Source of the DNA: Octopus vulgaris
Taxonomy: Eukaryota
Length of the DNA stretch: 64,000 bases
Reading direction: 5' to 3'
Assembly: GCA_951406725.2 (NCBI GenBank)
Contig: OX597822.1
Location: forward strand, 75,144,001-75,208,000
Part shown: piece by piece, positions 23,414 to 23,943 of the stretch
Layout: every line of letters begins with the position of its first letter
Numbering within the stretch: position 1 is the stretch's first letter
Made by a program: the position numbers and the translations under genes
The notes under the pieces: generated by a model
Told to the model about the DNA's origin: nothing
Database searches by the model: none
Seen by the model: only the letters and a program-made list of their open reading frames with translations

Positions 23414-23943
23414 TATAATTAATTAATAAGGGTGAGAGAATTAGATACTAATTTAATAGTATACCTATTCAACACCGTTGAATAGGTATACTATTAAATT
23501 AGTATCTAATTCTCTCACCCTTATCAATTAATTATAATTATGCTGCATTTATTTCTAAATGTAGTATCTGTTTCCGTGAAAGTTTGGCGCGCTGTTGGTA
23601 GGGGCATTTGAATTATAACGTCGGATGTAATCAATTGAACCACACGTGTATTTATCGTTATGGTAAAATCTGGCGTGTGATTGAGTGGATTTCATCCAGA
23701 TAGTTTTGGCTGAGGAGCTACAAGTGAGTTATTGTGAGTAAAATTACATTTAATTCATTAATAGCGAAACAATTGTCCCAAAATAATCTGTATTTTTGTT
23801 ATTTTTTATTTGCCCAGTTCGTGTGAGCTAACAATCGTACTGACTTTCATGGGAAACATGTATTTTTGTGGTTGAAACCTATTGGATCTATTACTAGTGC
23901 TAGAGTGAGCCACATAGTGACCACTCTCTTATATTTATTTTTA
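23414..23943 (+). mobile_element. hairpin-headed hammerhead element (family D)
   Basis: ~60-bp near-perfect hairpin 23414-23536 (loop ACC), hammerhead at 23704-23783, flanked by (TA)n; duplicated at ~29717-30245. Confidence 0.85.
23704..23783 (+). ncRNA. type I hammerhead ribozyme (family D)
   Basis: ttttgg CTGAGGA gcta...tagc GAAA caattg TC ccaaaa: 6-bp stem I, palindromic ACAATTGT stem III, GUC triplet. Confidence 0.85.

What the first reader, a model, noticed from the sequence alone, without database searches (positions are those of the whole stretch)
23414..23943. Family D: perfect hairpin head, long-loop hammerhead and circular permutation relative to the 1388 element
Seen: the hammerhead is ttttgg CTGAGGA gcta-(41 nt)-tagc GAAA caattg TC ccaaaa. 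Two motifs (X = GTGARCCACATAGTGRYCACTCTC; Y = ATTAAATTARTATCWAATT..TCACCCTYAT) occur in the order X then Y at 1388-1612, but Y, hammerhead, X here. At both loci one arm ends near X and the other ends near Y. Inference: both derive from a tandem or circular unit of roughly 550-600 nt with two fixed termini, which supports a multimeric RNA template.
Basis: partly seen in the sequence, partly recalled or inferred. Interest (0 to 1): 0.72.

Follow-up and report, generated by a model that had tools for sequence, protein, structure and literature searches.

The report
Penelope-pasted hammerhead retrozyme, two fixed ends
This is one of roughly a thousand copies of a 535-base non-coding repeat with a predicted self-cutting RNA motif, set into TA microsatellites as back-to-back arms that almost always end one at each of two fixed points, a footprint that likely records how Penelope-type jumping genes copy such RNAs.

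Summary
Observation confirmed. The element is a partial copy of a 535-nt head-to-tail repeat (family D) carrying a type I hammerhead. The 1388 element is a truncated member of a sister family (485 nt, 71% identical, same order hammerhead-X-Y), so the 'circular permutation' is two windows on collinear tandem units. In 171 genomic loci, 250 of 261 outward 3' ends fall at two sites, just after hairpin X or hairpin Y, mostly against (TA)n; 5' ends scatter. Of 90 head-to-head insertions, 77 carry one X-end and one Y-end, 2 carry like ends, 11 have one end elsewhere. Two protein-coding Hydra-type Penelope families in the genome follow the same rule, and one insertion fuses a relative to a Hydra RT fragment. 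Verdict: a new member of the animal non-LTR retrozymes, likely mobilised by Penelope-like elements; X/Y is the known Penelope 'tail', here about 130 nt. Best mechanism: both ends of a TA break are primed on one source RNA, possibly a circle, at two fixed sites. Cleavage, circles and the direct partner are not shown. This scan already noted the same kind and rule on other DNA of this genome.

The parts
23414..23473 (-). Short inverted arm of family D (unit positions about 231-293), outward end = Y-end, against (TA)n
23474..23476 (.). Junction of the two arms (3-nt loop of the hairpin head); the 5' ends of both arms lie at nearly the same unit position (231 and 234)
23477..23943 (+). Long arm of family D (unit position 234 through the cut site to about 160-167), outward end = X-end, against (TA)n
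23493..23524 (+). Motif Y: 3' part of a conserved hairpin (loop UUAAAU) plus TCACCCT, ending about 15 nt before the Y-end
23703..23784 (+). Type I hammerhead motif, extended helix II, minimal helix III with palindromic loop; predicted cut after 23777
23905..23928 (+). Motif X: hairpin with AUA loop, ending about 12 nt before the X-end
29717..30246 (+). Identical copy carried by a 6.3-kb local tandem duplication; not an independent insertion
1386..1449 (-). Inverted arm of sister family E (485-nt unit), outward end = X-end
   Evidence: L080
1451..1615 (+). Sense arm of family E: X, shared motif Z (1552-1568), Y, outward end = Y-end; truncated before the family's hammerhead

Best explanation
The element is a partial copy of a 535-nt non-coding tandem repeat with a predicted type I hammerhead (a non-LTR retrozyme), whose copies end at two fixed sites in TA microsatellites and are likely pasted there in trans by a Hydra-type Penelope-like retrotransposon. 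Shown: unit, tandem arrays, two fixed 3' ends, one-of-each rule in inverted copies, TA target, same rule in protein-coding Hydra-type elements of this genome. Inferred: the Penelope protein (probably a dimer) opens both strands of a TA tract and starts reverse transcription from each DNA end on the same source RNA, one start just 3' of hairpin X and the other just 3' of hairpin Y; the two cDNAs stop at variable places and are joined head to head, giving the hairpin head when both stop at the same unit position; if only one cDNA survives, a single arm results. The template is read through the ribozyme cut site, more likely as a re-ligated circle than as an uncut multimer (about 55:45, not shown).
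For: Unit and arrays. Ends: 250 of 261 outward 3' ends in 171 loci fall in two windows that cover about 11% of the unit; 203 of 261 have a TA-rich 30-nt flank. Rule: 77 of 90 inverted loci X+Y, 1 XX, 1 YY, 11 with one end elsewhere; 77 of 79 classifiable, p 5e-21; check from end-anchored pattern lists on contig C1: 23 of 23 head-to-head pairs X+Y, 17 of them not in the first sample. One source: arms of a locus differ by 1.5% against 3.5% to other loci, lower in 43 of 54, equal in 7. Two separate primings: in 14 of 69 simple loci the short arm holds 15 nt or more that the long arm lacks, and in 22 of 69 it runs through a site of the other type. Read-through: 168 of 242 arms cross the cut site; D arms do not stop there (15 against 11.6 expected). 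Array homogeneity: 1.4 substitutions between monomers within 13 arrays, 17.2 between 44 loci; in the 12-monomer array 10 of 11 variable columns are singletons. Hydra-type elements: family A (intact 900-aa ORF, DKT motif) ends at two sites about 150 nt apart in 18 of 20 loci, 6 of 6 classifiable inversions one of each; family B (CxCx5C linker) ends at two sites 77 nt apart, 9 of 11 inversions one of each, 2 other. Chimera: a family-A RT fragment is fused to a family-F retrozyme end between TA tracts with a 4-nt shared junction. Literature: two internal RT starts matching the tail, both strands nicked and extended, predicted dimer (PMC11167929); tail often at one end only, inverted 5'-truncated copies, (TA)n targeting by Hydra (PMC8557442).
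Against: The chimera is one event (present twice through a segmental duplication), involves family F rather than D, and could be a later deletion between neighbours. In 15 of 69 loci both 5' ends coincide (3.3 expected), which self-priming fold-back explains as easily. Arm similarity could also come from conversion between inverted arms. Non-D families show some excess of 5' ends near the cut site (13 against 6.7, window chosen after looking, biased sample), so cut linear RNA is sometimes the template. In the only in vitro system the two strands showed no difference in start site (PMC11167929). The end windows were set. Cleavage was not tested; in a Xenopus test 8 of 9 predicted retrozyme dimers did not cleave.
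Confidence: 0.72

Rival explanations
1. Same retrozyme and mobiliser, but the inversion arises from one priming: the cDNA (or an antisense RNA) folds back and copies itself, and the endonuclease or a stop signal fixes the second end at the other site.
For: 15 of 69 loci, the window's two among them, are near-perfect hairpins; arms of a locus are alike; palindromic junctions were read as self-priming on an antisense template in rotifer Penelope (PMC3846280 passages) and the tail as endonuclease resolution (PMC8557442).
Against: 14 of 69 short arms hold sequence absent from the long arm; 22 of 69 pass a site of the other type before ending; both arms can be multimeric, 8 and 4.4 units in L305; single-arm insertions end at either site.
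Confidence: 0.15
2. Family D is the detached end repeat (pLTR) of its own, still unfound or extinct, autonomous Penelope family, and the arrays are partial tandems made from uncut read-through transcripts; the hammerhead plays no part in mobility.
For: Retrozymes resemble pLTRs in Xenopus (bioRxiv 10.64898/2026.07.22.740005); hammerhead mutants do not affect insertion in vitro (PMC11167929); D arms ignore the cut site.
Against: No ORF-linked D end in 191 loci; the core and stems are kept in 172 of 196 D motifs and across families at 69-84% identity; near-identical monomers in long arrays fit repeated copying of one monomer. This rival differs only in origin and template.
Confidence: 0.1
3. A satellite or fold-back DNA element spread by DNA recombination or a DNA transposase, the hammerhead being incidental.
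For: Tandem arrays and inverted arms exist; no RNA evidence was obtained.
Against: Fixed 3' ends with scattered 5' ends, dispersal over many contigs, TA targeting and the same rule in RT-coding elements; no terminal inverted repeats in 81 single-arm loci.
Confidence: 0.03

Closest known systems
Animal non-LTR retrozymes (Cervera and de la Pena 2020, PMC7229834; Li, Clavereau and Pollet preprint 10.64898/2026.07.22.740005)
   Same: Non-coding, low-GC tandem repeats with one type I hammerhead per unit, short helix III with palindromic loop, highly self-paired predicted circle (z -5.9), co-existence with Penelope-like elements.
   Different: Unit 535 nt (170-400 nt in the 2020 paper, within 51-972 in the preprint); helix II extended to about 49 nt; expression, cleavage and circles not shown here; the parts of those papers that I read do not describe two fixed ends or head-to-head insertions.
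Hydra-clade Penelope-like elements (Craig et al. 2021, PMC8557442)
   Same: (TA)n targeting, hammerhead near the 3' end, 5' truncation, partial tandems, inverted 5'-truncated copy, tail at one end.
   Different: Family D has no ORF (longest 46 aa); tail about 130 nt in D, 100 in E, 150 in A, 77 in B against 30-40 nt in print; no sequence similarity to the two Hydra-type families checked.
Poseidon PAc from Anolis, in vitro (Frangieh et al. 2024, PMC11167929)
   Same: Two fixed internal RT start sites downstream of the hammerhead that match genomic ends; AT-rich target; both strands extended; cut site not used as an end.
   Different: Starts are 30-40 nt apart around one stem-loop and showed no strand difference; here they are about 130 nt apart, each behind its own hairpin, and used one per side.
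LINE-1 twin priming (recalled, from no call)
   Same: Head-to-head inversion from two primings on one RNA.
   Different: The second L1 priming site is variable and the arms do not overlap; here both sites are fixed and the arms usually overlap in unit position.

Membership tests
Animal non-LTR retrozyme | Tandem repeat with a type I hammerhead in each unit (at least two consecutive units) | tested here: met
   4 consecutive motifs 534-535 nt apart in L030; arrays to about 13 units; core and stems kept in 172 of 196 D motifs
Animal non-LTR retrozyme | Non-coding, GC under 50% | tested here: met
   Longest ATG ORF 46 aa on either strand of the circularised unit, GC 31%
Animal non-LTR retrozyme | No LTR, primer binding site or polypurine tract | tested here: inconclusive
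   No LTR-like fixed 5' end; primer binding site and polypurine tract were not searched for
Animal non-LTR retrozyme | Self-cleavage of the transcript | not testable with these tools
   Motif and fold only; helix III can form 8 bp between two copies
Animal non-LTR retrozyme | Expressed as linear and circular monomer RNA | tested here: inconclusive
   Only assembled contigs of runs of uncertain kind were on hand
Penelope-like element insertion | Fixed 3' ends with optional tail, variable 5' truncation | tested here: met
   250 of 261 3' ends at two sites; 5' ends spread over the unit
Penelope-like element insertion | Partial tandems and an inverted 5'-truncated copy | tested here: met
   90 of 171 loci inverted
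Penelope-like element insertion | Microsatellite (TA)n target | tested here: met
   203 of 261 3' flanks TA-rich, 36 of 81 free 5' flanks
Autonomous Penelope-like element | RT plus GIY-YIG ORF | tested here: not met
   No ORF in the unit; not filed as autonomous
Non-autonomous derivative of a named Penelope family | Sequence similarity to the pLTR of an autonomous family in the genome | tested here: inconclusive
   None to families A and B; other families not surveyed; one F-to-A chimera
Hydra clade (for the candidate mobilisers A and B) | C-terminal GIY-YIG without CCHH, DKT motif, CxCx5C linker, (TA)n target, hammerhead | tested here: inconclusive
   Read by eye: B has DKT, CxCx5C, GIY-YIG; A has DKT and GIY-YIG-like end but an N/S-rich insert and no clear CxCx5C; both have hammerheads and TA flanks; no tree was built

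The most novel reading that the evidence does not exclude
Penelope-type proteins insert by an asymmetric twin priming: a dimer opens both strands of a TA tract and each half starts at its own fixed hairpin-marked site on one RNA circle, rolling round it independently. The one-X-one-Y rule would then be the general explanation of the Penelope tail, inverted pLTRs and retrozyme arrays, and this 535-nt RNA with starts 130 nt apart would be a minimal substrate to prove it.
Probability: 0.4. Interest if true: 0.65.

Novelty: new member of a known kind. Interest (0 to 1): 0.42.

Why it matters
How Penelope-like elements make tandem and inverted insertions and their one-sided tail is an open question named in PMC8557442, and the mobiliser of animal retrozymes is proposed but not shown (PMC7229834). 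This family gives hundreds of young insertions with a near-strict rule (77 of 79; 23 of 23), the same rule in protein-coding elements of the same genome, and a small RNA with two well-separated start sites, so the mechanism can be tested directly with a candidate intact protein. The class of element and the qualitative anatomy are known; the counted rule and the long tail are the added value, and this scan has seen them before in other families.

Tried and rejected
Rfam gathering search of the window: 0 matches. Expression: no RNA holder listed; 24 rows hold part of the unit, none on record as RNA; four runs guessed to be RNA, contigs only, cover 26-27 of 30 bins; this can show neither cleavage, circles, strand nor level and is not used. 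Search for an autonomous element with D-like ends: ORF scans of the loci, tblastn of both Hydra-type proteins against the element loci (only L162 and the neighbouring separate insertion in L021), 8 long-span and 12 further Y-end loci (no RT or endonuclease hit) all negative for D. Similarity of units D-H to the 3' regions of A and B: AT-rich chance only. Cut site as a fixed 5' end: rejected for D. 'Short arm stops at the first site met': rejected, 22 of 69 pass one. Two window copies as independent insertions: rejected. One search was mis-registered (two rows aligned the Z region to X) and is used only as a lead. Family F was wrongly rotated and corrected; the hammerhead count for family G is mis-parsed and not used. 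Microhomology at the arm junctions (25 of 69 overlap) was not tested against chance. Covariation of the X and Y hairpins (3 of 11 and 2 of 6 pairs change on both sides, 1 of 500 shuffles reach the score) rests on 11 hand-picked related rows and a structure taken from them, so it is weak. Literature searches for a counted one-of-each rule found none; subscription papers and unseen supplements may hold it.

Full report
1. Observation. At 23414-23536 a 60-bp hairpin with one mismatch and a 3-nt loop stands directly after a TA tract. The type I hammerhead is at 23703-23784 as described; its 41-nt 'loop' folds as an extended helix II, and the stretch folds at z -4.4. An identical copy at 29717-30246 belongs to a 6.3-kb tandem duplication. 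Rfam gave no match at gathering score.

2. The unit. A genome search gave matches 535 nt apart; L030 holds consecutive monomers of 535, 535 and 534 nt. The 1388 element belongs to a sister family with a 485-nt unit and its own hammerhead. Further families of about 503 and 493 nt appeared. All are collinear, hammerhead-X-Z-Y, at 69-89% identity; D against E 71%, far above shuffles. The 'circular permutation' is therefore two different windows on tandem units. Copy number, lower bounds: 269 exact matches to a 20-mer in the D hammerhead, 1,935 to the shared 17-mer Z (control 1), 800 exact D Y-ends followed by TA (control 0), 369 X-ends on the forward strand (the reverse count is inflated by the variable gap). 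The unit is non-coding, 31% GC, and folds as a circle at z -5.9 over 40 shuffles. Core and stems are kept in 172 of 196 D motifs examined.

3. The ends. 220 loci were merged to 173 and two duplicates dropped. With position 1 after the predicted cut, 110 of 261 outward 3' ends lie just after X (about +160 in D), 140 just after Y (about +293), 11 elsewhere; the two windows, set, cover about 11% of the unit. All 81 single-arm loci end at X or Y. Of 90 inverted loci 77 have one X-end and one Y-end, 1 XX, 1 YY, 11 one end elsewhere. The samples differ in bias: the similarity searches favour long or Y-ending copies; the two pattern samples gave 25 XY, 1 YY, 4 other, and 22 XY, 4 other. A separate check from the end-anchored lists on C1 (56 Y-ends, 51 X-ends) gave 23 of 23 head-to-head pairs XY, 17 not in the first sample. 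5' ends are spread over the unit. X and Y each mark a hairpin that keeps pairing across families (weak test).

4. What the arms say. Among 69 simple XY loci, 14 have a short arm with 15 nt or more absent from the long arm and 22 have a short arm that passes a site of the other type, which a pure self-copy cannot give; yet 15 have coinciding 5' ends (3.3 expected), the window's two elements among them, which a shared RNA 5' end or a fold-back would give. Arms of one locus differ by 1.5% against 3.5% to other loci (54 loci with 40 nt or more of overlap). 168 of 242 arms cross the cut site, and D arms do not stop there; non-D arms show a mild excess. Monomers within 13 arrays differ by 1.4 substitutions, between 44 loci by 17.2. 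Both arms can be multimers. This fits two primings on one source and repeated copying of one monomer, as on a circle; a homogeneous parent array or later conversion is not excluded.

5. The mobiliser. One Z match (L162) is a 1.4-kb insertion between TA tracts made of 1.12 kb of an RT gene (97.7% to family A) joined by four shared bases to a family-F end that stops at the Y-end; it occurs twice through a segmental duplication. Family A has an intact 900-aa ORF with Hydra-like motifs, a hammerhead with the same long helix II and palindromic helix III, and two fixed ends 67 and about 216 nt after the cut: 18 of 20 loci, and 6 of 6 classifiable inversions one of each. Family B, young and abundant, ends 32 and 109 nt after its cut; 9 of 11 inversions one of each, 2 other. 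Neither resembles D in sequence, and no ORF-linked D end was found, so the direct partner is open.

6. Comparison with print. PMC7229834 (parts 2-4 of 6 read) defines animal non-LTR retrozymes, shows circles in coral, mussel and axolotl and proposes Penelope elements as mobilisers. Preprint 10.64898/2026.07.22.740005 (parts 1-3 of 5) relates them to pLTRs. PMC4209133 (part 1 of 4) describes the short palindromic helix III and dimer cleavage. PMC8557442 (passages, section 11 and a supplement search) describes partial tandems, inverted copies, a 30-40-bp tail often at one end only, and the (TA)n-targeting Hydra clade with a listed octopus family. PMC3846280 (passages) has the tail on one of the inverted pLTRs and reads junction palindromes as self-priming. 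PMC11167929 (parts 1-2 of 4) shows two internal RT starts that match the tail, on both strands. A counted one-of-each rule did not turn up in six searches; unseen supplements and closed papers may bear on this. My reading was written down; that look-up showed that this scan has reported the same kind of element and rule for other families in this genome, which is not independent support.

7. Verdict. Real, and a new member of a known kind: a retrozyme with Penelope insertion anatomy. Shown: unit, arrays, two ends, rule, target, the same rule in RT-coding elements. Inferred: mobilisation by a Hydra-type protein, twin priming at two hairpin-marked sites, circular template, ribozyme activity. Interest 0.42.

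Noticed in passing
window 26038-27147 and 32342-33453: A second head-to-head element with a different, compact type I hammerhead (six motifs over the two duplicated copies, both strands).
   Followed up: no
window 21033-27324 and 27338-33630: 6.3-kb tandem duplication at 99.6% identity; recent duplication or assembly artefact.
   Followed up: partly
window about 39264-43300: Array of a 105-bp unit, 37 overlapping matches, with a 617-codon open frame.
   Followed up: no
L162 (G000:C1:7518666) and L225 (G000:C1:205856917): Chimera of a Hydra-type RT fragment and a family-F retrozyme end; C1 near 7.5 Mb and near 205.85 Mb look like a segmental duplication.
   Followed up: partly
L255:2474-5176: Intact 900-aa Hydra-type ORF with an asparagine/serine-rich insert between RT and endonuclease, like the N-rich inserts of rotifer Penelope (PMC3846280).
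   Followed up: partly
L275-L304: Family B is young and abundant: 150 of 150 scored matches at 95-100% protein identity, 21,290 first-look candidates.
   Followed up: partly
alignment A1: The stretch before hairpin X and motif Z before hairpin Y look alike, so the two start signals may be an old internal duplication; a similar 8-mer lies in the tail of family A. Seen by accident, untested.
   Followed up: no
L257, L258, L268: More diverged relatives that keep X, Z and Y; one has a hammerhead ending like that of family A.
   Followed up: partly
A>G and T>C make up most differences between contigs and the unit in four runs; could be A-to-I editing of the hairpins or just family variants.
   Followed up: no
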